NCBI GenBank assembly: GCA_044228005.1
Contig: JBGAVR010000031.1
Location: 1-38,480, forward strand
DNA from: Microthrixaceae bacterium
GTDB lineage: Bacteria; Actinomycetota; Acidimicrobiia; Acidimicrobiales; Microtrichaceae
Reading direction: 5' to 3'
Length of the DNA: 38,480 nt
Both the position numbers and the translations under genes were made by a program. Within the stretch, counting starts at the first letter, position 1; every line of letters begins with the position of its first letter. Positions 3,733-15,485 of this stretch are shown piece after piece. The notes beneath the pieces are model-generated. The model was given only the letters and a program-made list of their open reading frames with translations, was not told the origin of the DNA and made no database searches.

Positions 3733-4465
3733 TGGCCCTCCTGGTAGTTGGCGCTGCTTCGGGAGTGGAACTCGTTGCGATTGCGTCTGCGCTGCTCGGC
3801 AGGAAGGCACCAATGACAGCTCGCATCGTCGTCTGAAAGAGGGGATTGAGCTTCGGCGAAACGCGCATCGCCGCAAGGGTTGCGGCATCAATGCCGGTGT
3901 CGGTGACCTCAGACCACAACACCTGCGGTTGAATCTGGCGCGTTGCCTGCGATGCAGCTTCGCTTTCGATTGCAGTTGAACGAAAGCCAACGACCAGGAA
4001 TCCAGCGACGCAGCTCAGAATTGCTCGTAGCGCGTCTCTCGCTTGTGCGCCGTGAACACCGGCAGCGTTGAGTTCTTGTGCCATCGCGATTTCCATGGGG
4101 AGCCCAAGCAGCGAGGTCGCTCCGCTCTGATGCGCGAGCGCCGTGATGTTGCGGTGGTTCAGCGCGTTGCTCCAAATCTTGGTTGCAACACAGAGGATTC
4201 GTTCGAGCGGAGTATCGCCAGTGATGGCTGTGGTGGATTGCAGATCGGAGAGTCGCTTGATGACTGCCAGGACAAGCTCATCGCGGCCGCCGACATGCCA
4301 GTAGATCGTCGTGGTTGCGACATTGAGATCCGCTGCCAGTCGTCGCATCGTCAGCGCGTCGCCACCCTCAGTCTCCACGAGCTTCATCGCGACCTCGACG
4401 ATGTCCTCCGCGCTGAGTCCGGCTCGCCTCCCCGTAGATTTCGGTGCTGTCGAAGCTGCGCTCAA
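3719..4465 (-). CDS. TetR/AcrR family transcriptional regulator
   Basis: N-terminal HTH LTMRRLAADLNVATTTIYWHV is the classic TetR signature. It is divergent from the amidohydrolase gene and overlaps the downstream ADC-like gene by 14 nt. Confidence 0.85.
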   Translation of the reverse strand: MSAASTAPKSTGRRAGLSAEDIVEVAMKLVETEGGDALTMRRLAADLNVATTTIYWHVGGRDELVLAVIKRLSDLQSTTAITGDTPLERILCVATKIWSNALNHRNITALAHQSGATSLLGLPMEIAMAQELNAAGVHGAQARDALRAILSCVAGFLVVGFRSTAIESEAASQATRQIQPQVLWSEVTDTGIDAATLAAMRVSPKLNPLFQTTMRAVIGAFLPSSADAIATSSTPEAAPTTRRANDRA

Positions 4466-4540
4466 CGTGTTCCTCTGAACCTCTGGTCTGATGCCGCGCT
4501 GGGCGTGGATTCCTTTTCAAACTACATCTTTTCAACACTT

Positions 4541-4580: not shown

Positions 4581-4636
4581 TAGCGAACAGATGACGCTCA
4601 GCTCTCACTATTGCGAATCCCTTGGAGGCACTCCCG

Positions 4637-5923
4637 ATGACCAATCCACTCGCCGGCGTGGACACCAGCAATGATCCCTATGTGATCGTGTCCTCCGACA
4701 CTCACGCAGGGCTACAGGTGGCCGAATACCGTGACTATCTCGATTCCAAGTTCCATCCCCAGTTCGATGAATGGATCATCCAACGTCACAACCATCGCCG
4801 TCTGATCGAGGAAGTCAACGGTGAATACGTCGCGCAGTGGGAAGGTGACAACGCGGAGGGTCTCAAGGGTGCCTACGATCCAGCGATTCGGGATAGCGCC
4901 ATGGACGCCGACGGCATCGCCGGCGAGATCATCTTCGCCGATGGCGATTCGGTCACCGGCCAGGAGTCGCCGCCGTTTGGAGCTGGCCTCGCTGCGGGCC
5001 AAATCACCGATCCGGCTCTTGCCTTCGCTGGAGCTCGAGCTCACAACCGTTGGCTTGAGGAGTTCTGCGCGACTGATCCGGTTCGTCGAGCAGGAGTTGC
5101 GCTCATTCCGGTGATTCACGACGTCGCCGAGGCAGTCCGAGAGGTCGAGTCGCTTGCAGGAAAGCCGGGGATCAAGGGTGTCATGGTGCCAACGATGTGG
5201 CATGACAAGCCGAGCTATGGGCACCCGATGTACGACCCGTTCTGGCAGGCCTGTGCGGAGGCCAACCTTGTGGTTCATACCCACTCGGGCGAAGGTGACT
5301 GGGAAAGCTACAACGACAACATCGCCCAGTTCGTGCTTGAGGTACCGTTCTGGACTCACCGGATCCTGTGGCAGCTCCTGCTGTCCGGGAAGTTCGACAA
5401 GTTCCCCGGTCTCAAATACGCGGTTGTTGAGTGTGGCTCCTACTGGCTTGGGGATCTGCTCTGGAAGGCCGACACCACCTTCGGAGCCAACGGCAAAGTG
5501 AAGAAGCTCAACTCGCGAACCAAGGGCCTCATCAAGCGCCTTCCCTCGGAGTATGTGGGGACCAACGTGTTCATTGGTGCGTCCACCATGAGCACCGAGG
5601 AGATTCGCCGGCGACACACCAACGGGATCGACGCGTTGATGTGGGGAACCGACTACCCACATCCCGAAGGCTCCTGGCCTCACACGGTGACGCGACTCGA
5701 GACCGACTTTCAGACAGTGTCCATTGAGGACACCCGTCTGCTCCTTGGACTCAACGCGGTGCGCTGCTACGACCTCGATCTTGCCGGGCTCACCGAGGTG
5801 GCCAAGCGCGTTGGGCCAACCCCTGAAGGGCTCAACCAGGAGCTCGGTCTCCGCACCCCTGAGGATGCAATCGACAAGGCCCGCTGGTGGTTTGAGGCCT
5901 ACGGCATGGAACGAAAGGGCTAA
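4637..5923 (+). CDS. Amidohydrolase-2 (ACMSD-like metal-dependent hydrolase/decarboxylase) family protein
   Basis: VSSDTHAG N-terminal metal-binding motif, HTHSGEGDW, and a WGTDYPHPEG C-terminal motif typical of PF04909. ATG at 4637 with GGAGG 8 nt upstream; the track's TTG 4622 start is rejected. Confidence 0.8.
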   Translation: MTNPLAGVDTSNDPYVIVSSDTHAGLQVAEYRDYLDSKFHPQFDEWIIQRHNHRRLIEEVNGEYVAQWEGDNAEGLKGAYDPAIRDSAMDADGIAGEIIFADGDSVTGQESPPFGAGLAAGQITDPALAFAGARAHNRWLEEFCATDPVRRAGVALIPVIHDVAEAVREVESLAGKPGIKGVMVPTMWHDKPSYGHPMYDPFWQACAEANLVVHTHSGEGDWESYNDNIAQFVLEVPFWTHRILWQLLLSGKFDKFPGLKYAVVECGSYWLGDLLWKADTTFGANGKVKKLNSRTKGLIKRLPSEYVGTNVFIGASTMSTEEIRRRHTNGIDALMWGTDYPHPEGSWPHTVTRLETDFQTVSIEDTRLLLGLNAVRCYDLDLAGLTEVAKRVGPTPEGLNQELGLRTPEDAIDKARWWFEAYGMERKG

Positions 5924-6990: not shown

Positions 6991-9900
6991 CTACGAGCGG
7001 GGTCGGGATGTGATCTCTGCGGAGAGCTTCACCACCTGCTCAGGATCATCGGGTGGAATCAAATCCACCACATCCCATCCGGCCTGGCGCAACATCGCGT
7101 AGCGATCGAGATGAGCAGCCGCACCATCGGGATGAGCTCCACACAGCACACCAATCACGTTGGTCTCATATTCGAGGACAAGATCGACAACGTGACGTCC
7201 GACCGGGAAGGAATTGGTGACCGAGGCGCCCCCGAATCGGCACGCCTGCCCAAACGTCTCCGCGGTTGCGTTCCTGGCCGCCGCAGCGCTCAGCCTCATA
7301 TCCGGAGGGGTTCGTGCCCATGTGAGGTACCGGCCAATCAGACTTGAAGGCTCCGATACCTCCGTTGCAAACACATCGATCTCGTTGCGTGCCCGGGTCA
7401 CCAGCACGTTGAAAAGGTTCGCGTTCTCCAAGAAACGAGCGCGTCCGGGCGGCGAGGTGTGGTCGATCCCGACCACGATCAGTACGTGGGATCGTTCTGC
7501 TCCTTGAAACCCATGGGTAGTAGAGATCATCAGATTGGTGTCAGCGAGGAGCTCTGGGGACAAATCGGTGAGCGCTGTTTCGGTGAGCTGGTCGACGATG
7601 TCTCGGAACGGGGAGATGATTCCGATGCTCCGGACGCCTTCGCGATGTAGCGCGCGTGTCCGCTCAATAGCCTCAGCAATGGCTGACTGGTTGTCGGCAA
7701 CGAGGTGAGTGTGGATGCAGTCGAGCGTGAGATTGTGAGGAGACTGCGTGACGAGGTGAAGCGGGTTGGAATAGAAGTGCTCGGCAGAAAACCCTATGAG
7801 GTGCGGTGCTGACCGGTAGTGCTCGTCAAGCCACTGGACCGGGGCTGCTGAGGCAGCGAGGTCAAACACGCTGTTGCGCGCGGGATCGAGGCGTGCCACG
7901 TGTTCGAGGAGGTCGGCCTGGGCGAATGCAGAATGGGTTGCCTCGCTAGAAAGAAATGACACGAAGCGCAACTGTTGGGGATCGCCTGCAATGAGTGCGC
8001 GCTTCGCCCGGAGGAGGCCCGGCGCAGCCACCGCCAGTTCGACTTGGGAGGCTTCATCGACGACGACGAGGTCGAACAGGCCTGCAATCTTCGGTAGTAG
8101 ACGTTCAATTTCACCAAGTGTCCCAAGCCACAATGGCGCAGCCTGAAGGAGCTCCTGGGGGTTGAGGGTGTCGATAAGCTTCCCGCGCGAAGCGGCTCCC
8201 GAGCGCAGGGCAGTGCTCAGCGCCGACACAACCTGTCGGCCCGAGCTGCTGCGGGCCTGTTCCAGAAGTTCCTGATCTAGTAGCTGGCCGCGAAGTAGTC
8301 GGAGCGATGCAGTGGCCTCAAACCATCGGGGCAATGTCCTGCGAAGTTCTTCACCGATCTCGGTGAGTTGAGGTTTCGATCTCGATGCTTCGGCCGCTGC
8401 AATGGCCTCACCGATGTGGCGCAATCTGCGAGCGAGATGAGGTTCGTTGTCTGTCTTGAGCGGTGTGGACAGACGCTTGTTGAGCCTGCGAATCGCCACT
8501 CGTCGTCGTTGCCGAACCCACCAATTGCCTTCAACAGGGCGAGCAGTGTTGAGCGTCTTGGTGAACCTTTCGAGGTCGGCATTGGGGGCGAAGAGAGGTG
8601 GAAACTCCTCTCGAAATCCCCCGATGATCTCGGGATCAGTCAGGTAGGTCTCTACTGCTTCAACGACGGCAAGCAGTTCTAGCGCTCGTGCATGCAGGGT
8701 TTGCTCTTCCAGCGTTCGTGCTTCTAGTTGAACCTCGAGTTTGGAGTCCCCAGCATGAAGGTCCGGGGTTGGCGCAGCCAGGCGACGATCAAGTTCGGAG
8801 ATTGCCGACTTGAGCGCGTCCGGCGAACCAAAACGTAACGCTGGAGGGCCAGGCTGTTTGCCGAGTTGAGCGGCGATCACTTCGGCGGCCTCGATTGACC
8901 GGGTTGCCACAAGTACCGATTGACCGGCTGCAATCGCATTGCAGATTGCGGCGCAGAGGGTATGAGTTTTACCGGTGCCGGGGGCGCCAGACACCGCCGT
9001 GACTGGTTCGGTCGCGGCCGACAGGGCGATCATCCGTTGAGCGGCGCTCAGAGGTAACAGTCCCTCGAACGTTGCGATGGAATGCACATCCGAGTCGTGC
9101 GTGGCGATCAGAGCCGAGTGACCCGCCGGGCCTTCGAGCGGCTCTGCCGCCTGCCCTGCCGCGAGCCCTGTTGAGTGTTCTCGCGCGTGAGGGAACGCGA
9201 TGGAGTTGAACGCAGTTTCGTCGATGCCCTCTACGCTCGCCCATCGCCCAACTGCTGCCCGCTGAGTGAAGCTGCTGGTTGGTGAAGGAGCAACGAGGCC
9301 GAGCCCAATACAAACGGTCACACGGTCTTCAACTGGTTCGATGCTCGCTGGATGAGCCTCGGTGATCTGGTCTAGTTCCCATCCGATGGCCGCTGCGAGG
9401 AGACGAATCCAATGGTGAACTTCCTCCATGGCAGTGGAGTGGGAGCCTTCCTCAAGGCTCGCCGATTCGCTCGTAGAGAAGGCGGCGTTGAGGACCTGCT
9501 CGGCCGCCGATTCGTCCTCGATGTCGACTCCGAGGTTCCAGTCGGTCGCCTGACGGAGAGTCCACGAGTTTGAGAAGGGCAGGGTCCGGAGGTTCGAAAA
9601 GGGACGAAGGGTCGCCGGTGGGTTGCCGAGTTCGATCCGGGTTTGCAGCAGCGGCAACCCGACGCGGCGTGGCTGCTGTGAGTTCGTTTCGCTGGGGTGG
9701 TTCCGAACAGCCACGAGCCAGGTTGCGCGAATCGACTGATCGCCGGCGAGATTCGACCGCAACTGAAGATGTTCGAGGATTTTGTTGCTCGTCGGAAGCG
9801 CTGCACCGCTGGGCCCAAGGACCGAGAGCTGACCGTTCGCAAGGCTGGAGAGACTGTTGTTTCGTATCGAAAGGAGACCAAAGGGATCAGAGAAACCATC

Positions 9901-10014
9901 AATTCCGCTCGGTGTTGTTCCAAGCCAAACCAGGTCATCGAGGCGAAGAGTTTCCTGAGCGGAACTTGACGCACTGAGGGAACTCAGCGCTTGAAGTAGT
10001 GCCTGTGTCTGCAT
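6991..10014 (-). CDS. Upf1/DNA2-like SF1 helicase (AAA_11/AAA_12) fused to C-terminal DUF559/Vsr-like PD-(D/E)xK endonuclease domain, with an uncharacterised ~330-aa N-terminal region
   Basis: Walker A GAPGTGKTHT (aa 343-350, nt ~8965-8988), DEASQ box (VVVDEASQV), GDPQQL motif, and a helicase C-terminal motif TTHGFQGAERSHVLIV. The C-terminal ~100 aa (GRHVVDLVLEYETNVIGVL...GWDVVDLI) resemble DUF559 restriction-endonuclease-like domains. Confidence 0.8.
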   Translation of the reverse strand: MQTQALLQALSSLSASSSAQETLRLDDLVWLGTTPSGIDGFSDPFGLLSIRNNSLSSLANGQLSVLGPSGAALPTSNKILEHLQLRSNLAGDQSIRATWLVAVRNHPSETNSQQPRRVGLPLLQTRIELGNPPATLRPFSNLRTLPFSNSWTLRQATDWNLGVDIEDESAAEQVLNAAFSTSESASLEEGSHSTAMEEVHHWIRLLAAAIGWELDQITEAHPASIEPVEDRVTVCIGLGLVAPSPTSSFTQRAAVGRWASVEGIDETAFNSIAFPHAREHSTGLAAGQAAEPLEGPAGHSALIATHDSDVHSIATFEGLLPLSAAQRMIALSAATEPVTAVSGAPGTGKTHTLCAAICNAIAAGQSVLVATRSIEAAEVIAAQLGKQPGPPALRFGSPDALKSAISELDRRLAAPTPDLHAGDSKLEVQLEARTLEEQTLHARALELLAVVEAVETYLTDPEIIGGFREEFPPLFAPNADLERFTKTLNTARPVEGNWWVRQRRRVAIRRLNKRLSTPLKTDNEPHLARRLRHIGEAIAAAEASRSKPQLTEIGEELRRTLPRWFEATASLRLLRGQLLDQELLEQARSSSGRQVVSALSTALRSGAASRGKLIDTLNPQELLQAAPLWLGTLGEIERLLPKIAGLFDLVVVDEASQVELAVAAPGLLRAKRALIAGDPQQLRFVSFLSSEATHSAFAQADLLEHVARLDPARNSVFDLAASAAPVQWLDEHYRSAPHLIGFSAEHFYSNPLHLVTQSPHNLTLDCIHTHLVADNQSAIAEAIERTRALHREGVRSIGIISPFRDIVDQLTETALTDLSPELLADTNLMISTTHGFQGAERSHVLIVVGIDHTSPPGRARFLENANLFNVLVTRARNEIDVFATEVSEPSSLIGRYLTWARTPPDMRLSAAAARNATAETFGQACRFGGASVTNSFPVGRHVVDLVLEYETNVIGVLCGAHPDGAAAHLDRYAMLRQAGWDVVDLIPPDDPEQVVKLSAEITSRPRS

Positions 10015-11455: not shown

Positions 11456-12052
11456 TCAGCTAGGCCCAGCTTCGTTGGTGCGGCCCACTTGCCGGTAGGA
11501 GGCAGCGAGGTTCGCTCGGGCGGTGAGCGTGTCGGGATGTTCGACACTGACGAGCTCAGCGGTTGTTTGGGCGCAGCGTTCGGCGAGGTCCGGGCGTGTT
11601 TGGGTGCCTACGGCGATAATGCCGTGAGCGACTTCAACCGTGTCGGTGGTGAGGACGAGAAGACCGAAATCGGCGAGTGATGCGAGCGTGCCACGCACCA
11701 AGTCGACATCACCGAATGGGTCGCTGTCGGCGAGCGCGGTGGTGAACCATGTTCGGTTGATGTTGCGCCAGTCGTGCGTGGACGCCACCGCGAGCGTGAG
11801 AGGAGCGAGCGGGTGCTGCTGTTGTAGCGTGGCGAGGGATTCGTTCTACACGGCGGCGACGGTTCGTTTGTAGCGTGCATCAGATTCGAGGTCGAGGTGT
11901 TTGATGCCTTCAAGATCGACCAGTTTGATGTACTCGGCGAGGGTGAGCCGGTTCCGGCAGCGTTTGCCGGCGAGATACAACGCAAGTGGGAGGTAGCCGA
12001 GCCGTTCGGCGAGGGCCGGGAGTTGGGGCGGCAGGCAGGTTGGCGGCGCCAA
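11456..12052 (-). pseudogene. Degraded remnant of a STAND NTPase (NB-ARC + TPR) gene
   Basis: Two same-frame fragments are separated by in-frame stops. One is LGYLPLALYLAG (the GLPLAL motif of the NB-ARC ARC1 subdomain). The other is a single TPR, EHPDTLTARANLAASYRQVGRTNEA. No P-loop region is present upstream: the other frames are R/S/P-rich gibberish, then the AT-rich islet. The TPR part is truncated after one repeat. Confidence 0.45.
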
Positions 12053-12299
12053 TCCACCCGACGAGCAGGACTGCGTCGGCGAGTGCTTGTTCGTGCACTT
12101 TTGCGGCGATCTGGGTTTGCCGACCCCACCGATTCAGCGACAGCGGTAAGGACAACGGTTGATGCGGTGCTGAGCTGTTCCAGCGCGGCGTCGCGGAGGC
12201 TGCACCTCGTGAGAAGGGCTCGAAGCGGTCGATCGGCTGTTGGAAGGCCGACTGCTTGGAGACCGGCACGACTGGTCTGGCTGGTGGCAAGCGAGAAGC

Positions 12300-12379
12300 T
12301 ATATCTAGATGATCCACCCCTAAACGTTCAGGTATATCTAGACGAATGGATCTATTTCGCCTACTCTTAACTAGACGAA
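12300..12379. promoter_or_regulatory. AT-rich promoter/operator region with three CTAGAyGA-containing repeats spaced 33 bp apart (two are the 10-mer TATATCTAGA)
   Basis: TATATCTAGA at 12300-12309 and 12333-12342. CTAGACGAA at 12338-12346 and 12371-12379. Local GC is far below the window average. It sits immediately upstream of the HTH (protein A) gene. Confidence 0.45.
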
Positions 12380-12393
12380 CGAAGGACCTGGCT

Positions 12394-12843
12394 ATGGGCA
12401 GCAACAAGGCAATGGCTCGCTCAGCGCTCGAGCGGGACCTCGAACGACATCGCGACACGCCTACCCTCGCACCGCGCAGCGGCTGGATCCGAGCCATCCG
12501 CGATGCGCTCGGCATGTCTACGAGCGAGCTCGCCAGTCGCATGGGGGTATCGAAAGCGCGGATCGGCCAAATCGAGCGGGGAGAGCGTGAACGCACTATC
12601 ACCCTCGACACACTCGAGCGCACCGCCAACGCGCTTGGGTGCCGCGTCGAGTATGTCCTGGTCCCTCGCGAGCCGCTCGACAAACTCGTCTGGGCTCAGG
12701 CCATGGCGAAAGCCAGAGCAGAGATCGGGGCAGTCGATCACACCATGGAGCTCGAGGATCAGCGCCCTGATCCCAGCTCCACCGCGACGCGCATCCAGGA
12801 GGCCGCCCGCCAGCACATCGACAAGCGCGGCCTCTGGTCATGA
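12394..12843 (+). CDS. Mobile mystery protein A (XRE-like HTH partner of Fic protein; TIGR02612-like)
   Basis: ATG at 12394 with AAGGA upstream. RSGWIRAIRDALGMSTSELASRMGVSKARIGQIERGE is an XRE-type HTH matching the 'mobile mystery protein A' family. The stop overlaps the start of the next gene (ATGA). Confidence 0.7.
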   Translation: MGSNKAMARSALERDLERHRDTPTLAPRSGWIRAIRDALGMSTSELASRMGVSKARIGQIERGERERTITLDTLERTANALGCRVEYVLVPREPLDKLVWAQAMAKARAEIGAVDHTMELEDQRPDPSSTATRIQEAARQHIDKRGLWS

Positions 12844-13430
12844 GCGATCCGCTGTTCGACACCAGCGACGGCAACACGCCCATCGATGAGGACGAGGCAC
12901 TCGGACTTAAACTCACGTGGGTGCGCTCACGAGGCGACCTCAACGAAGCCGAAGCAGCAAACATTCTCGACGCCCGTCGTGCGATCCGCTCTCCAACTCT
13001 CGGCGAGGTACTCGACGACCTCTGGTTACGCCAGCTCCATTTTCGGATGTTCGGAGATGTCTGGACCTGGGCTGGAACATACCGGGTCAGCGATCGCAAC
13101 ATCGGCATCGACTGGACCGAGGTTACCGCTGCAGTTCGGAACCTCGTTCAGGACGCACAAGCCTGGATAGGAGACGACGAGCAGCACACGTCGGTCGCCC
13201 GGTTCCATCACCGACTAGTCGCTATCCACCCCTTCCCGAACGGCAACGGCCGCCACGCCCGCGCCGCGGCCGACTACCTCTCCAACGCCCTCAAGATCGC
13301 ACTACCAACTTGGGGCGCTCTCACCTACAACGACACCGCAAACCTGCGCGCCGCCTACCTCGCGGCGCTCCGCACCGCCGACCGCGCCACGAATGACCTC
13401 GAACCCCTCGTCGGCTTCATGTGGTCATAA
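12840..13430 (+). CDS. Mobile mystery protein B, Fic/Doc family (AMPylation/phosphotransfer domain)
   Basis: Canonical Fic motif HPFPNGNGRHAR (HPFx[DE]GNGR). 196 aa. Translationally coupled to protein A. Confidence 0.85.
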   Translation: MSDPLFDTSDGNTPIDEDEALGLKLTWVRSRGDLNEAEAANILDARRAIRSPTLGEVLDDLWLRQLHFRMFGDVWTWAGTYRVSDRNIGIDWTEVTAAVRNLVQDAQAWIGDDEQHTSVARFHHRLVAIHPFPNGNGRHARAAADYLSNALKIALPTWGALTYNDTANLRAAYLAALRTADRATNDLEPLVGFMWS

Positions 13431-13782
13431 GCCGCCAGTGGCGCCTGAGCATCTCCAAAGTGCACCTCTGGATGCCAAACGCTCGACCCAACCTCCAGCC
13501 TTCAACCCCCAACCGCGAAACGTGGTCGACCGCTGATCAAACCCGAACTCGGGCGGCTGGTCGCCGATCGCCGCAGAGAACCCTAACTGGGGCTAGTCGA
13601 GTGGGAGGCGCAAGGTCGGTTTCCCGGAGCGGTTCACGAGCGTCGCTGCGAATGCGATGAGCCGCGTTCGGGTCATCGAAGCTCGTCGATTCGGTCGATG
13701 TTGCTCGAAACTGTGCTTTACGAGAGCGCCTTCCGGAATGGTCGTTTGCACGGCGGAGGAAGCCATCACTCCGGCACCCCTC

Positions 13783-14434: not shown

Positions 14435-14536
14435 TTGCTAGTGGTCGGGAATTGCTAGTGACGGGAGATGGCTACTGGTCGAGAGTTACTACTGGTCGAG
14501 AGTTGCTACTGGTCGGGTATTGCTAGTGGCTGAAAC
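14435..14536. repeat. 17-bp imperfect tandem repeat ×6 (consensus TTGCTACTGGTCGRGAR)
   Basis: Units at 14435-14451, 14452-14468, 14469-14485, 14486-14502, 14503-14519 and 14520-14536. The array fills the whole space between the GlxA stop (14523-14525; the last unit overlaps the final 4 codons) and the DJ-1 RBS/start. Confidence 0.75.
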
Positions 14537-15485
14537 GAGAACGGTAGGCCTCGGGGGACACTCCAACCTGGTCCGCCATGACGCGGCGAAGGGTTTCGGA
14601 GGACCCCAATCCGCAGTTCCGAGCGATGTGGTTGAGCGGGAGCGAGGTTGATTCGAGAAGGTCTCTCGCCGCATCAAGGCGGCGTTGTTGCACATACGCG
14701 GCCGGTGTCAAACCAGTCTCAGAACGAAACAGGCGTGCGAAATGGCGCTGGCTGAGCGCCACCTCGCCTGCAAGTGTCTCGACTCGCAAGTCCTCCGCGA
14801 GGTTCTGATGGATGAACTGCCGTGCTTGGGCGATCGCGCCATGTTGTGGTGGCGGGCCGGCGGTTGCTCGTGCGAATTGACGCTGACCGCCCGGCCGTCG
14901 GAGAAAGACAACCAGCCAGCAGGAGACGAGGTGGGCCACCTCAGGCCCAACGTCGGCGTCCACGAGCGCCAGTGCCAAGTCGATCCCAGCGGTCACGCCG
15001 GCCGATGACCAGATGTGGCCGTCCTGTCGGTAGATGGAGTCTCCGTCTACCGACACGGTAGGAAATCGCGAAGCGAGTTCCTCCGCGTAGGCCCAGTGAG
15101 TGGCGACAGTTCTTCCCGATAGTCGACCGGTGGCCGCAAGGAGGAAGGCTCCAGTACAGACAGTTGCCAACCGCGCAGCTTGCTGTGCAAGATCCTCTGC
15201 CATCTTGACTGTTGCCGGCTGCTCCGCTGCGGATCGAACGCCCCGGCCGCCCGGCAGAATGAGTGTGTCGAGCGCGCCAACCTCATGTGGTGGCACCACT
15301 GGGCCAATAGTGAGCCCTGTCTCACTGGCGCAGTTGGGCTCGCCGATCAGGATGACCTCATACCTCTCCGGAGACCCGGAGAGTTGCAGCGCATCATCGG
15401 CTCCTCGGAAGACCTCATAGGGTCCGACCACATCAAGGCCTTGGTATCCGGGAAACACCAGAATGCCAATTCGACGCGTTGCCAT
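14523..15485 (-). CDS. GlxA family transcriptional regulator (DJ-1/PfpI domain + AraC-type HTH)
   Basis: N-terminal RIGILVFPGYQGLDVVGPYEVF (DJ-1-like). C-terminal AraC HTH (IARNCGLGSSETLRRVMADQVGVSPEAYRSRF). Confidence 0.85.
   Translation of the reverse strand: MATRRIGILVFPGYQGLDVVGPYEVFRGADDALQLSGSPERYEVILIGEPNCASETGLTIGPVVPPHEVGALDTLILPGGRGVRSAAEQPATVKMAEDLAQQAARLATVCTGAFLLAATGRLSGRTVATHWAYAEELASRFPTVSVDGDSIYRQDGHIWSSAGVTAGIDLALALVDADVGPEVAHLVSCWLVVFLRRPGGQRQFARATAGPPPQHGAIAQARQFIHQNLAEDLRVETLAGEVALSQRHFARLFRSETGLTPAAYVQQRRLDAARDLLESTSLPLNHIARNCGLGSSETLRRVMADQVGVSPEAYRSRFSH

What the first reader, a model, noticed from the sequence alone, without database searches (positions are those of the whole stretch)
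12290..13430. AT-rich islet carrying a 'mobile mystery protein A/B' (HTH + Fic) module with 33-bp-phased iteron-like repeats
The HTH protein (12394-12843) and the Fic protein with an intact HPFPNGNGRHAR motif (12840-13430) are translationally coupled by an ATGA overlap. The ~100 bp upstream are conspicuously AT-rich for this genome. They carry three CTAGAyGA-containing repeats with starts at 12305, 12338 and 12371 (three helical turns apart). The first two are the 10-mer TATATCTAGA. This looks like an autoregulated toxin/antitoxin-like Fic module of foreign origin. The targets and function of this family remain unknown.
Basis: partly seen in the sequence, partly recalled or inferred. Interest (0 to 1): 0.55.

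Follow-up and report, generated by a model that had tools for sequence, protein, structure and literature searches.

The report
HTH–Fic operon with phased operators
This is an ordinary member of the widespread but untested "mobile mystery protein A/B" gene pair; comparing 74 relatives shows that its three upstream repeats are a conserved set of repressor-binding sites spaced exactly 33 bp apart, which makes the family's regulation directly testable.

Summary
Gene A (12394-12843) passes TIGR02612 and gene B (12840-13430) passes TIGR02613. They overlap by ATGA. Three repeats sit 33 bp apart upstream.

Three details of the description need correcting:
- Only about 100 bp upstream is AT-rich (GC 0.44). 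The genes have native or higher GC (0.66 and 0.63, against 0.605 for the window).
- The Fic motif is HPFPNGNGRHAR. Asn replaces the canonical Asp/Glu, and this is true across the family.
- The repeats are not iterons. They are the right halves of three 18-bp sites with a 6-6-6 inverted-repeat layout.

Across 74 non-redundant loci from many phyla, repeats lie exactly 33 bp apart in 34 loci (0.5 expected). Triple palindromes appear only at period 33. Most loci have three sites, some four.

Protein A also carries a nearly invariant C-terminal motif, [T/S/H]-M-x-L-E-x-Q, at the end of a predicted helix. It resembles the inhibitory (S/T)xxxE(G/N) motif of FicA/VbhA antitoxins, but the similarity is not statistically significant. 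B folds most like class I FicT toxins and has no inhibitory motif of its own.

Best reading: an autorepressed, toxin-antitoxin-like Fic cassette carried on plasmids and genomic islands. Toxicity, target and DNA binding are untested. It is a new member of a known, named, uncharacterised family.

The parts
12293..12310 (.). Operator site 1: GAGAAG CTATAT CTAGAT (6-6-6 layout). The right half-site is good; the left is decayed.
   Evidence: This register was chosen independently by the triple-palindrome scan. It aligns with palindromic sites of close relatives. Arm matches to the locus consensus GTCTAG are 3+5 of 6+6.
12326..12343 (.). Operator site 2: GTTCAG GTATAT CTAGAC, exactly 33 bp after site 1.
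   Evidence: arm matches 4+6. It is homologous to ACAAGTTATACCTAGAC in L087/L008.
12359..12376 (.). Operator site 3: GCCTAC TCTTAA CTAGAC, 33 bp after site 2 and 18 bp before the start codon of A.
   Evidence: arm matches 4+6. Relatives L087 and L089 have the perfect palindrome GTCTAG-N6-CTAGAC here. Nucleotide homology to relatives begins at 12357.
12260..12277 (.). Possible vestigial fourth in-phase site: AGACCG GCACGA CTGGTC. Weak and not significant.
   Evidence: It lies exactly 33 bp upstream of site 1, with arm matches of only 1+4. Four-site arrays exist on pTi-SAKURA and Vibrio p114-1.
12381..12386 (+). Ribosome-binding site GAAGGA, 7 nt before the ATG of A.
   Evidence: Read directly from the sequence. 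It supports the 12394 start over the upstream ATG at 12346, as does the TIGR02612 alignment starting at residue 8.
12394..12843 (+). Gene A: mobile mystery protein A, 149 aa. It has an N-terminal helix (residues 2-21), an Xre-type HTH (31-80), a long helix (95-120) and a second helix (127-142).
   Evidence: TIGR02612 135.5 bits. HTH_3 5.5e-13. AF2 model pLDDT 85.8. Best fold matches are HigA3, HipB and R-M controller proteins.
12739..12762 (+). Codons for H116-T-M-E-L-E-D-Q123 of A, the most conserved non-HTH motif of the family. It is a candidate in-trans inhibitory element.
   Evidence: L120 is kept in 77/77 sequences, E121 in 76/77 and Q123 in 76/77. The pattern [STHN][MS]xLExQ occurs in 74/77. 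It lies at the C-terminal end of predicted helix 95-120.
12840..12843 (+). ATGA overlap of the A stop codon and the B start codon.
   Evidence: The same 4-nt overlap occurs in 37 of 77 loci, and the rest have short overlaps or gaps.
12840..13430 (+). Gene B: mobile mystery protein B, 196 aa, a single Fic domain.
   Evidence: TIGR02613 178.5 bits. Fic 8.2e-11. AF2 model pLDDT 83. The best solved-structure matches are EcFicT/EcFicA, BepC, VbhT/VbhA and Fic-1/AntF, with FICD close behind.
13227..13262 (+). Codons for the Fic signature H130-PFPNGNGRHA-R141, with Asn134 at the canonical Asp/Glu position.

Best explanation
This is a self-contained, autorepressed two-gene cassette of the TIGR02612/TIGR02613 family. 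It is organised like a type II toxin-antitoxin or abortive-infection module.

Proposed mechanism.
- Protein A dimers bind through the Xre-type HTH to three 18-bp sites (6-bp arm, AT-rich 6-bp centre, 6-bp arm) at 12293, 12326 and 12359.
- The centres are exactly 33 bp apart, so bound dimers lie on roughly the same face of the DNA. They can then cooperate, or be bridged by B, to shut off the promoter that the array covers.
- A and B are made from one transcript with coupled translation (ATGA overlap).
- The C-terminal half of A is proposed to dock on helix alpha-1 of B and place the invariant Glu121 (motif T-M-E-L-E-D-Q at a helix end) against the second Arg of the Fic loop (R141). FicA and VbhA block FicT and VbhT in this way.
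- Free B would then transfer a nucleotide-derived group to a cellular protein and stop growth.

Shown here: family membership, operon structure, reality of the repeats, and conservation of their number, symmetry, phase and position across phyla; the conserved motif in A; the fold class of B; the absence of a cis-inhibitory motif in B; mobility of the cassette.

Inferred, not shown: that A binds these sites, that Glu121 inhibits B, that B is toxic, and B's chemistry and target.
For: Family and operon. Both models pass their cut-offs. A lies directly upstream of B in 78 of 80 loci from many phyla. The overlap is -4 nt in 37 of 77 loci.

Operators.
- 10-mers with up to 1 mismatch recur at exactly 33 bp in 34 of 74 non-redundant upstream regions (shuffle mean 0.5, maximum 3). 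They recur at 66 bp in 18 loci, 65 bp in 8 and 99 bp in 4.
- Three 6-6-6 palindromes scoring at least 14 of 18 occur in 23 of 74 loci at period 33. At any other period from 25 to 44 the count is 0-3, and in shuffles it is 0.0.
- Of 36 clear loci, 21 have three in-phase sites and 8 have four. The proximal site usually starts 18-45 bp before the A start codon; in the window it starts at -35.
- Four sites at exact 33-bp steps occur on pTi-SAKURA and on a Vibrio plasmid.
- Close relatives have perfect GTCTAG-N6-CTAGAC at the position of window site 3.
- Half-site classes track residues of the A recognition helix.

Protein A. The HTH fold matches the antitoxins HigA3 and HipB and the R-M controller proteins. 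The L-E-x-Q motif is invariant and sits at the end of helix 95-120. [quoted passage not shown] VbhA has SQRLEG and EcFicA has SRRLEG, and the E24G and E28G mutant structures mark that Glu.

Protein B. Its best structural neighbours are class I toxins solved with their antitoxins (5jfz, 3shg, 8wt0). Only 1 of 77 B sequences has an [ST]xxxE[GN] motif. R141 is invariant, as are N35, A37, E38 and I42 on helix alpha-1.

Mobility. Neighbourhoods vary among close relatives. 243 plasmid records carry the pair. Homology to relatives is confined to 12357-13436.

Prior prediction. Xre-Fic/Doc gene pairs were already listed among candidate TA pairs (PMC2701414).
Against: - No experiment on any family member was found, so toxicity and neutralisation are unproven.
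- The A motif is TxxxED in the window. Only 16 of 77 A proteins match the strict (S/T)xxxE(G/N) pattern.
- Profile comparison with VbhA is not significant (probability 0.1%, E 0.51), although it does align LE with LE.
- A profile of the A C-terminal half finds no solved homologue.
- Asn at the metal-binding acidic position may weaken or change catalysis. BepC, which also has a non-canonical motif, has no known enzymatic activity (PMC8401265).
- In the window the left half-sites are decayed. The palindrome score is 10 of 18 against a shuffle mean of 9.4, so symmetric dimer binding here is less certain than in relatives.
- No sigma-70-like promoter was detected.
- 33 bp is 3.14 helical turns, not an exact multiple.
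Confidence: 0.6

Rival explanations
1. Anti-phage defence module. B is an abortive-infection effector like SoFic or the PADLOC candidate PDC-S04. A is the sensor and repressor that releases B on infection. This overlaps with the TA reading, differing only in the biological role.
For: B matches PADLOC PDC-S04 (6e-17) and SoFic (4.4e-9). SoFic is a Fic-domain defence toxin with a small antitoxin (PMC12249575). A close relative sits beside AbiEi/AbiEii. The window has an MkoC-like helicase and a decayed STAND NTPase nearby. No copy was found in 50,697 phage records. TIGR02613 was counted among the defence cargo of Tn7-like transposons (PMC8649781).
Against: The PADLOC hits reflect the shared Fic domain and have no curated cut-off. 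PDC-S04 is only a candidate. Many copies sit among housekeeping genes or on symbiosis and Ti plasmids, where plasmid stabilisation is an equally good role. No phage challenge data exist.
Confidence: 0.25
2. Non-toxic regulatory pair. B is a weak or reversible modifier (for example a de-AMPylase, or a modifier of A itself) that tunes the DNA binding of A. The module would then be a signalling switch rather than a poison-antidote pair.
For: Asn replaces the acidic residue of the Fic motif in nearly all members. Fic/antitoxin complexes can act as de-AMPylases (PDB 8wt0 title; PMC8401265). Another Fic enzyme is regulated by DNA binding through an HTH (CbFic2, PMC10628234). The pair is retained with native GC on chromosomes.
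Against: The catalytic His, GNGR and both Arg residues are invariant. The cassette structure, the tight autoregulatory array and the association with plasmids and islands are typical of addiction modules. The operator motif was found nowhere else in the 38.5-kb window.
Confidence: 0.12
3. The repeats are replication or partition iterons, or recombination sites of a mobile element, rather than operators.
For: They are regularly spaced direct repeats in an AT-rich stretch, and the family is common on plasmids.
Against: In relatives the units are inverted repeats. They lie immediately upstream of the A start codon in chromosomes and plasmids alike, and they travel with the two genes. No rep, par or recombinase gene belongs to the cassette. 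There are no tRNA genes and no Rfam hits nearby.
Confidence: 0.03

Closest known systems
Mobile mystery protein A/B (NCBIfam TIGR02612 / TIGR02613)
   Same: Both proteins pass the curated cut-offs. The gene order, sizes and overlap match, and plasmid copies carry the same PGAP names.
   Different: Nothing differs in kind. The window copy is a chromosomal Acidimicrobiia-type member with partly decayed left half-sites. The phased operators and the A motif described here were not found in any paper retrieved.
Class I Fic toxin-antitoxin modules (VbhT/VbhA, FicT/FicA, Fic-1/AntF)
   Same: The antitoxin gene is upstream. The toxin is a ~200-aa single Fic domain without a cis inhibitory helix. These toxins are the best structural matches of B. 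The A motif T-M-x-L-E resembles S-x-R-L-E-G and sits at a helix end, as in FicA.
   Different: The antitoxin here is 149 aa and carries an Xre HTH, whereas FicA and VbhA are ~60-aa three-helix proteins. There is no significant sequence similarity between them. The Fic motif has Asn instead of Asp/Glu. The VbhT model scores 22.9 bits against a cut-off of 800.
HipBA and HigBA type modules (Xre-HTH antitoxins acting on several palindromic operators)
   Same: The HTH of A is structurally closest to HigA3 and HipB. HipB has been solved on O1-O2 and, with HipA, on O2-O3 operator pairs. The logic of an HTH antitoxin repressing its own operon through multiple palindromes is the same.
   Different: The toxin is unrelated (Fic rather than a kinase or RNase). 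The fixed 33-bp register of three or four sites is specific to this family, as far as this analysis shows.
Phd/Doc
   Same: The toxin has the Fic/Doc fold, and the operon is autoregulated by the antitoxin. Doc-type motifs tolerate Asn at the acidic position (the motif HxFx[D/N][A/G]NKR, quoted from my own knowledge).
   Different: B keeps GNGR, not the Doc-specific NKR. The antitoxin fold is an Xre HTH, not Phd/YefM.
SoFic and PADLOC PDC-S04 Fic defence candidates
   Same: They share the Fic domain, with HMM hits of 4.4e-9 and 6e-17.
   Different: The SoFic profile is 361 positions long and the match covers only part of it. SoFic's antitoxin AS1 is a small downstream protein (PMC12249575). Neither has an HTH partner or an operator array.

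Membership tests
TIGR02612/TIGR02613 mobile mystery protein A/B pair | Protein A scores above the TIGR02612 cut-off. | tested here: met
   135.5 bits against 122.6, covering model positions 5-149 of 150.
TIGR02612/TIGR02613 mobile mystery protein A/B pair | Protein B scores above the TIGR02613 cut-off. | tested here: met
   178.5 bits against 124.4, covering model positions 2-184 of 186.
TIGR02612/TIGR02613 mobile mystery protein A/B pair | A lies immediately upstream of B in one operon. | tested here: met
   ATGA overlap in the window. A is upstream of B in 78 of 80 related loci.
TIGR02612/TIGR02613 mobile mystery protein A/B pair | Family-specific Fic signature HPFPNGNGRxxR. | tested here: met
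   The window has HPFPNGNGRHAR. Asn is at position 5 in 74 of 75 loci.
TIGR02612/TIGR02613 mobile mystery protein A/B pair | Three or four 18-bp sites at 33-bp steps upstream of A. This feature was derived in this analysis. | tested here: met
   Sites at 12293, 12326 and 12359.
Class I Fic toxin-antitoxin (FicT/FicA, VbhT/VbhA) | Fic fold with the catalytic His and GNGRxxR, and no cis inhibitory helix. | tested here: met
   H130, G135-R138 and R141 are invariant. The fold matches 5jfz and 3shg. [ST]xxxE[GN] occurs in 1 of 77 B proteins.
Class I Fic toxin-antitoxin (FicT/FicA, VbhT/VbhA) | Canonical acidic residue in HPFx(D/E)GNGRxxR. | tested here: not met
   Asn134 in the window, and Asn in 74 of 75 loci.
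Class I Fic toxin-antitoxin (FicT/FicA, VbhT/VbhA) | The partner protein carries (S/T)xxxE(G/N) at the C-terminal end of a helix. | tested here: inconclusive
   The window has T117-M-E-L-E121-D. The strict motif occurs in 16 of 77 A proteins and [ST]xxLE[GNDA] in 51 of 77. The motif is at the end of predicted helix 95-120. hhalign against VbhA is not significant.
Class I Fic toxin-antitoxin (FicT/FicA, VbhT/VbhA) | Sequence membership in the VbhT/FicT equivalog. | tested here: not met
   NF045983 scores 22.9 bits against a cut-off of 800.
Class I Fic toxin-antitoxin (FicT/FicA, VbhT/VbhA) | Growth arrest by AMPylation of GyrB/ParE, relieved by the antitoxin. | not testable with these tools
   This needs expression and biochemical assays.
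Plasmid iterons | Direct repeats bound by a Rep initiator at an origin next to a rep gene. | tested here: not met
   There is no rep gene in the cassette or its flanks. In relatives the units are inverted repeats fixed upstream of A.
Doc-type Fic kinases | Signature HxFx[D/N][A/G]NKR, with Lys in place of the second Gly. | tested here: not met
   B has GNGR.
SoFic / PDC-S04 defence Fic proteins | A match to the system's HMM, plus demonstrated phage protection. | tested here: inconclusive
   HMM hits of 6e-17 (PDC-S04) and 4.4e-9 (SoFic, partial) without curated cut-offs. Protection is not testable here.

The most novel reading that the evidence does not exclude
The family may be a distinct, fourth way of controlling a Fic enzyme. 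In this reading a DNA-bound array of HTH antitoxin dimers, held in a rigid 33-bp register, stores and silences an Asn-variant Fic enzyme. The enzyme's chemistry or target would differ from the gyrase/topo IV AMPylation of the known FicT toxins. Release would be coupled to the state of the DNA, such as supercoiling, invasion or replicon loss, rather than only to antitoxin proteolysis.
Probability: 0.15. Interest if true: 0.65.

Novelty: new member of a known kind. Interest (0 to 1): 0.4.

Why it matters
The pair is named and annotated in thousands of genomes, and on Ti, symbiosis, Coxiella and Vibrio plasmids, yet I found no functional study. This analysis turns it into a concrete, testable model with four elements:
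- a defined operator (an 18-bp 6-6-6 site);
- a strict architectural rule (three or four sites at 33-bp steps);
- a candidate inhibitory glutamate in the antitoxin (E121);
- a diagnostic active-site variant in the enzyme (N134).

If confirmed, it would add an HTH-fused FicA-like antitoxin to the known modes of Fic control. It would also explain a widespread plasmid and genomic-island cargo. For this particular window, the finding is an ordinary member of that family.

Tried and rejected
- **Fused A-linker-B structure prediction.** This was meant to test the E121-R141 contact.
- **PDB search with a profile of the A C-terminal half.** It returned only a chance hit to a lysyl-tRNA ligase.
- **Pfam scan of the same segment.** Nothing consistent came back.
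- **hhalign of that profile against VbhA.** It aligns LE with LE but at probability 0.1%. It is therefore kept as a lead, not counted as evidence.
- **Sigma-70 promoter scan of 12100-13700.** No site was found. In relatives the best -10-like hexamers tend to fall inside site 2 or site 3, but the pattern is loose, so no promoter is claimed for the window.
- **Compositional test for foreign origin.** It was negative for the genes.
- **Decayed STAND gene upstream.** I considered that the cassette had interrupted it. The remnant ends near 12140, well before the operators, so I dropped the idea.
- **Rfam and tRNA scans.** Nothing was found.
- **Coxiella QpH1 copy.** It does not show the 33-bp rule. 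Its repeats are 42 bp apart, B is shortened and there is a 112-bp gap between A and B, so it is probably decaying.
Full report
**1. What is in the sequence**

Two same-strand ORFs, 12394-12843 (A, 149 aa) and 12840-13430 (B, 196 aa), overlap by ATGA.
- A scores 135.5 bits on NCBIfam TIGR02612, 'mobile mystery protein A' (cut-off 122.6).
- B scores 178.5 bits on TIGR02613, 'mobile mystery protein B' (cut-off 124.4).
- Pfam sees HTH_3 in A (residues 32-87) and Fic in B.
- A GAAGGA ribosome-binding site lies 7 nt before the ATG at 12394. The family model aligns from residue 8. The 12394 start is therefore preferred over the in-frame ATG at 12346.

The degenerate pattern occurs nowhere else in the window, and 0 of 100 shuffles reach three matches. 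CTAG is four-fold depleted in the window.

The exact protein sequence of B is found on contigs from wastewater and other metagenomes, and in the metagenome-assembled genome GCA_963851605.1, always in the same neighbourhood. The nearest named relatives are Acidimicrobiales/Acidimicrobiia.

**2. Corrections to the description**

Only the ~100 bp from 12290 to 12393 is AT-rich: GC 0.44 against a window mean of 0.605. It is the second most AT-rich 100-bp stretch of the window. The genes are not AT-rich. A has GC 0.658 and B 0.626, with GC3 of 0.77 and 0.74, at or above their neighbours. Composition therefore gives no evidence of recent foreign origin.

The Fic signature is HPFPNGNGRHAR. The catalytic His, GNGR and both Arg residues are kept, but Asn replaces the Asp/Glu of the canonical HPFx(D/E)GNGRxxR. 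This is a family trait: Asn in 74 of 75 loci and in 113 of 116 database relatives, with Lys, Thr or His in the rest.

**3. The repeats are a conserved operator array**

I fetched 80 loci encoding B relatives from one genome per species. They span Actinomycetota, Pseudomonadota, Chloroflexota, Spirochaetota, Cyanobacteriota and other phyla. An A homologue lies directly upstream in 78 of them.

- **Phase.** In 74 non-redundant 160-bp regions upstream of A, a 10-mer with up to 1 mismatch recurs at exactly 33 bp in 34 loci. The dinucleotide-shuffle mean is 0.5 and the maximum 3. It recurs at 66 bp in 18 loci, 65 bp in 8, 99 bp in 4, 32 bp in 4 and 34 bp in none.
- **Symmetry.** The units are 18-bp inverted repeats with 6-bp arms around an AT-rich 6-bp centre, for example ACCAGG CTATAA CCTGGT, GTCAAC ATATAT GTTGAC and GACAAT CTATAC ATTGTC.
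- **Specificity of the period.** Three such palindromes scoring at least 14 of 18 are found in 23 of 74 loci at period 33. At every other period tested from 25 to 44 the count is 0-3, and in shuffles it is 0.0.
- **Number and position.** Among 36 clear loci, 21 have three in-phase sites, 8 have four and 6 have two. The proximal site usually starts 18-45 bp before the start codon.
- **Plasmids.** pTi-SAKURA has four sites at 2400, 2433, 2466 and 2499 of L092. Vibrio parahaemolyticus p114-1 has four at 2386, 2419, 2452 and 2485 of L094.

The arm sequences differ between loci while the geometry is kept. That is the signature of selection on architecture, with co-evolving specificity. Half-site classes track residues of the A recognition helix: xxCAGG goes with Q-[ST]-[VI], xxCAAY with Q-[RAS]-[AV], and xATAAC with QPR[VI]. 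Shared ancestry confounds this association.

**4. The window's own sites**

The scan places the window's sites at:
- 12293-12310: GAGAAG CTATAT CTAGAT
- 12326-12343: GTTCAG GTATAT CTAGAC
- 12359-12376: GCCTAC TCTTAA CTAGAC

Aligning the control regions of close relatives gives the same register. It also shows perfect GTCTAG-N6-CTAGAC palindromes at site 3 in L087 and L089, and CAAG...CTTG palindromes at sites 1 and 2.

In the window the left half-sites are partly decayed: the palindrome score is 10 of 18, no better than shuffles. A fourth in-phase position (12260-12277) matches weakly and is not significant. No sigma-70-type promoter is detected. In relatives the best -10-like hexamers tend to fall within site 2 or site 3, but only loosely.

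**5. Protein A**

The AF2 model (pLDDT 85.8) has these elements:
- an N-terminal helix (residues 2-21)
- a five-helix Xre HTH (31-80)
- a long helix (95-120)
- a second helix (127-142)

The HTH is closest to the antitoxins HigA3, HigA2 and HipB, and to restriction-modification controller proteins.

Outside the HTH, the most conserved residues of the family form the motif [T/S/H]-M-x-L-E-x-Q, which is H116-T-M-E-L-E-D-Q123 in the window. L120 is kept in 77 of 77 sequences, E121 in 76 of 77 and Q123 in 76 of 77. The motif sits at the C-terminal end of helix 95-120.

[quoted passage not shown] VbhA reads SQRLEG and EcFicA reads SRRLEG, and the E24G and E28G mutant structures mark that Glu.

The resemblance, [ST]-x-x-L-E at a helix end, is suggestive but not statistically supported:
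- hhalign pairs LE with LE at probability 0.1%.
- A PDB profile search finds nothing.
- Pfam finds nothing.
- Only 16 of 77 A proteins fit the strict motif.

**6. Protein B**

The AF2 model (pLDDT 83) is an all-helical Fic domain with a low-confidence stretch at residues 80-88, where Fic proteins carry the target-docking flap. The best solved matches include class I toxins crystallised with their antitoxins, with FICD close behind:
- EcFicT/EcFicA (5jfz)
- VbhT/VbhA (3shg)
- Fic-1/AntF (8wt0)
- the Bartonella Beps, including BepC

By sequence, VbhT is also the top PDB hit (1.9e-5). Only 1 of 77 B proteins has an [ST]xxxE[GN] motif, so cis inhibition of the class II or III type is unlikely. Helix 31-48, which corresponds in position to the antitoxin-docking alpha-1 of FicT, carries the invariant residues N35, A37, E38 and I42. 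The VbhT equivalog model is far below its cut-off (22.9 against 800 bits), so B is not a FicT orthologue.

**7. Mobility**

Close relatives of the cassette sit in unrelated neighbourhoods:
- L087 (85% identical B): beside AbiEi/AbiEii and three tyrosine recombinases.
- L089 (76%): between rve_3 transposase fragments.
- L090 (63%): among metabolic genes.

Nucleotide homology to these relatives is confined to 12357-13436, from operator site 3 to 6 nt past the stop codon of B. The mobile unit is thus the bare operon.

243 plasmid records carry the pair: Agrobacterium 99, Rhizobium 50, Sinorhizobium 17, Vibrio 17, Coxiella 15 and others. All are annotated 'mobile mystery protein A/B'. None of 50,697 phage records does. 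The cassette is mobile, but this shows in comparative context, not in composition.

**8. Literature**

Full-text searches for the family names and accessions return only genome-annotation mentions and a table of Tn7 cargo. Xre-Fic/Doc gene pairs were counted among candidate TA pairs in 2009 (PMC2701414). I found no functional, structural or operator study of this family. The searchable library does not hold most subscription-journal papers, so this absence is not proof.

**9. Most likely mechanism**

- A dimers bind the three phased sites and repress the operon. This is inferred from conservation, symmetry, position and HTH type. I put it at about 0.8.
- A neutralises B through its C-terminal helices, with E121 acting like the FicA/VbhA glutamate. 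This is inferred. I put it at about 0.4-0.5.
- Free B modifies a cellular protein with a nucleotide-derived group and arrests growth. This is inferred from fold and gene organisation. I put toxicity at about 0.5. Target and chemistry are unknown, and the Asn variant leaves room for altered metal or substrate use.
- The invariant 33-bp step (3.14 turns) suggests a rigid protein bridge between neighbouring dimers, possibly through B. This remains unexplained.

**10. Verdict**

The window holds an ordinary member of a known, named, widely spread but experimentally uncharacterised family. Its interpretation is partly supported, with corrections on the AT-rich 'islet', the 'intact' motif, the 'iterons' and the basis for 'foreign origin'. 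The added value is at family level: a precise operator architecture and a candidate inhibitory motif that make the family directly testable.

Noticed in passing
window 11456-12140 (- strand): One reading frame holds the remains of a STAND NTPase. It has a P-loop-like IGGVGKP, a GLPL-like LGYLPLAL only ~30 residues later (implying an internal deletion), an in-frame stop, and then a single TPR (Pfam TPR_12, 8.6e-5). It looks like a decayed gene next to the cassette.
   Followed up: partly
window 6991-10014 (- strand): A 1007-aa SF1 helicase (AAA_11 and AAA_12) whose best PADLOC hit is MkoC of the Mokosh system (4e-31). Together with the STAND remnant, this hints at a defence-rich or variable neighbourhood.
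   Followed up: no
window 4462-4539: The most AT-rich 100-bp stretch of the window (GC 0.38). It lies in the gap before the amidohydrolase gene at 4622-5923.
   Followed up: no
whole window: CTAG is about four-fold under-represented, 34 observed against 137 expected from base composition.
   Followed up: no
L092 2400-2516 (pTi-SAKURA); L094 2386-2505 (Vibrio p114-1): Both plasmids have four operator sites at exact 33-bp steps rather than three. These are tractable native systems for experiments.
   Followed up: yes
L093 2370-2480 and 2931-3042 (Coxiella burnetii QpH1): This copy breaks the rules. Its repeats are 42 bp apart, there is a 112-bp gap between A and B, and B is shortened to 159 aa. 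It is possibly a decaying copy.
   Followed up: partly
L020, L031, L034 upstream regions: A minority of loci use a 32-bp rather than a 33-bp step.
   Followed up: no
L087 4147-5735 and 8496-11035: The closest named relative of the cassette (85% identity) sits between an AbiEi/AbiEii pair and three consecutive tyrosine recombinase genes.
   Followed up: no
window 13431-13782: 352 bp downstream of B has no convincing ORF, no Rfam match and no terminator-like hairpin.
   Followed up: partly
window 14523-15485; L089 4454-5431: A DJ-1/PfpI-AraC (GlxA-like) regulator gene lies about 1 kb from the cassette both in the window and in a 76%-identical relative. The two genes share no detectable nucleotide homology, so this is probably coincidence.
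   Followed up: partly
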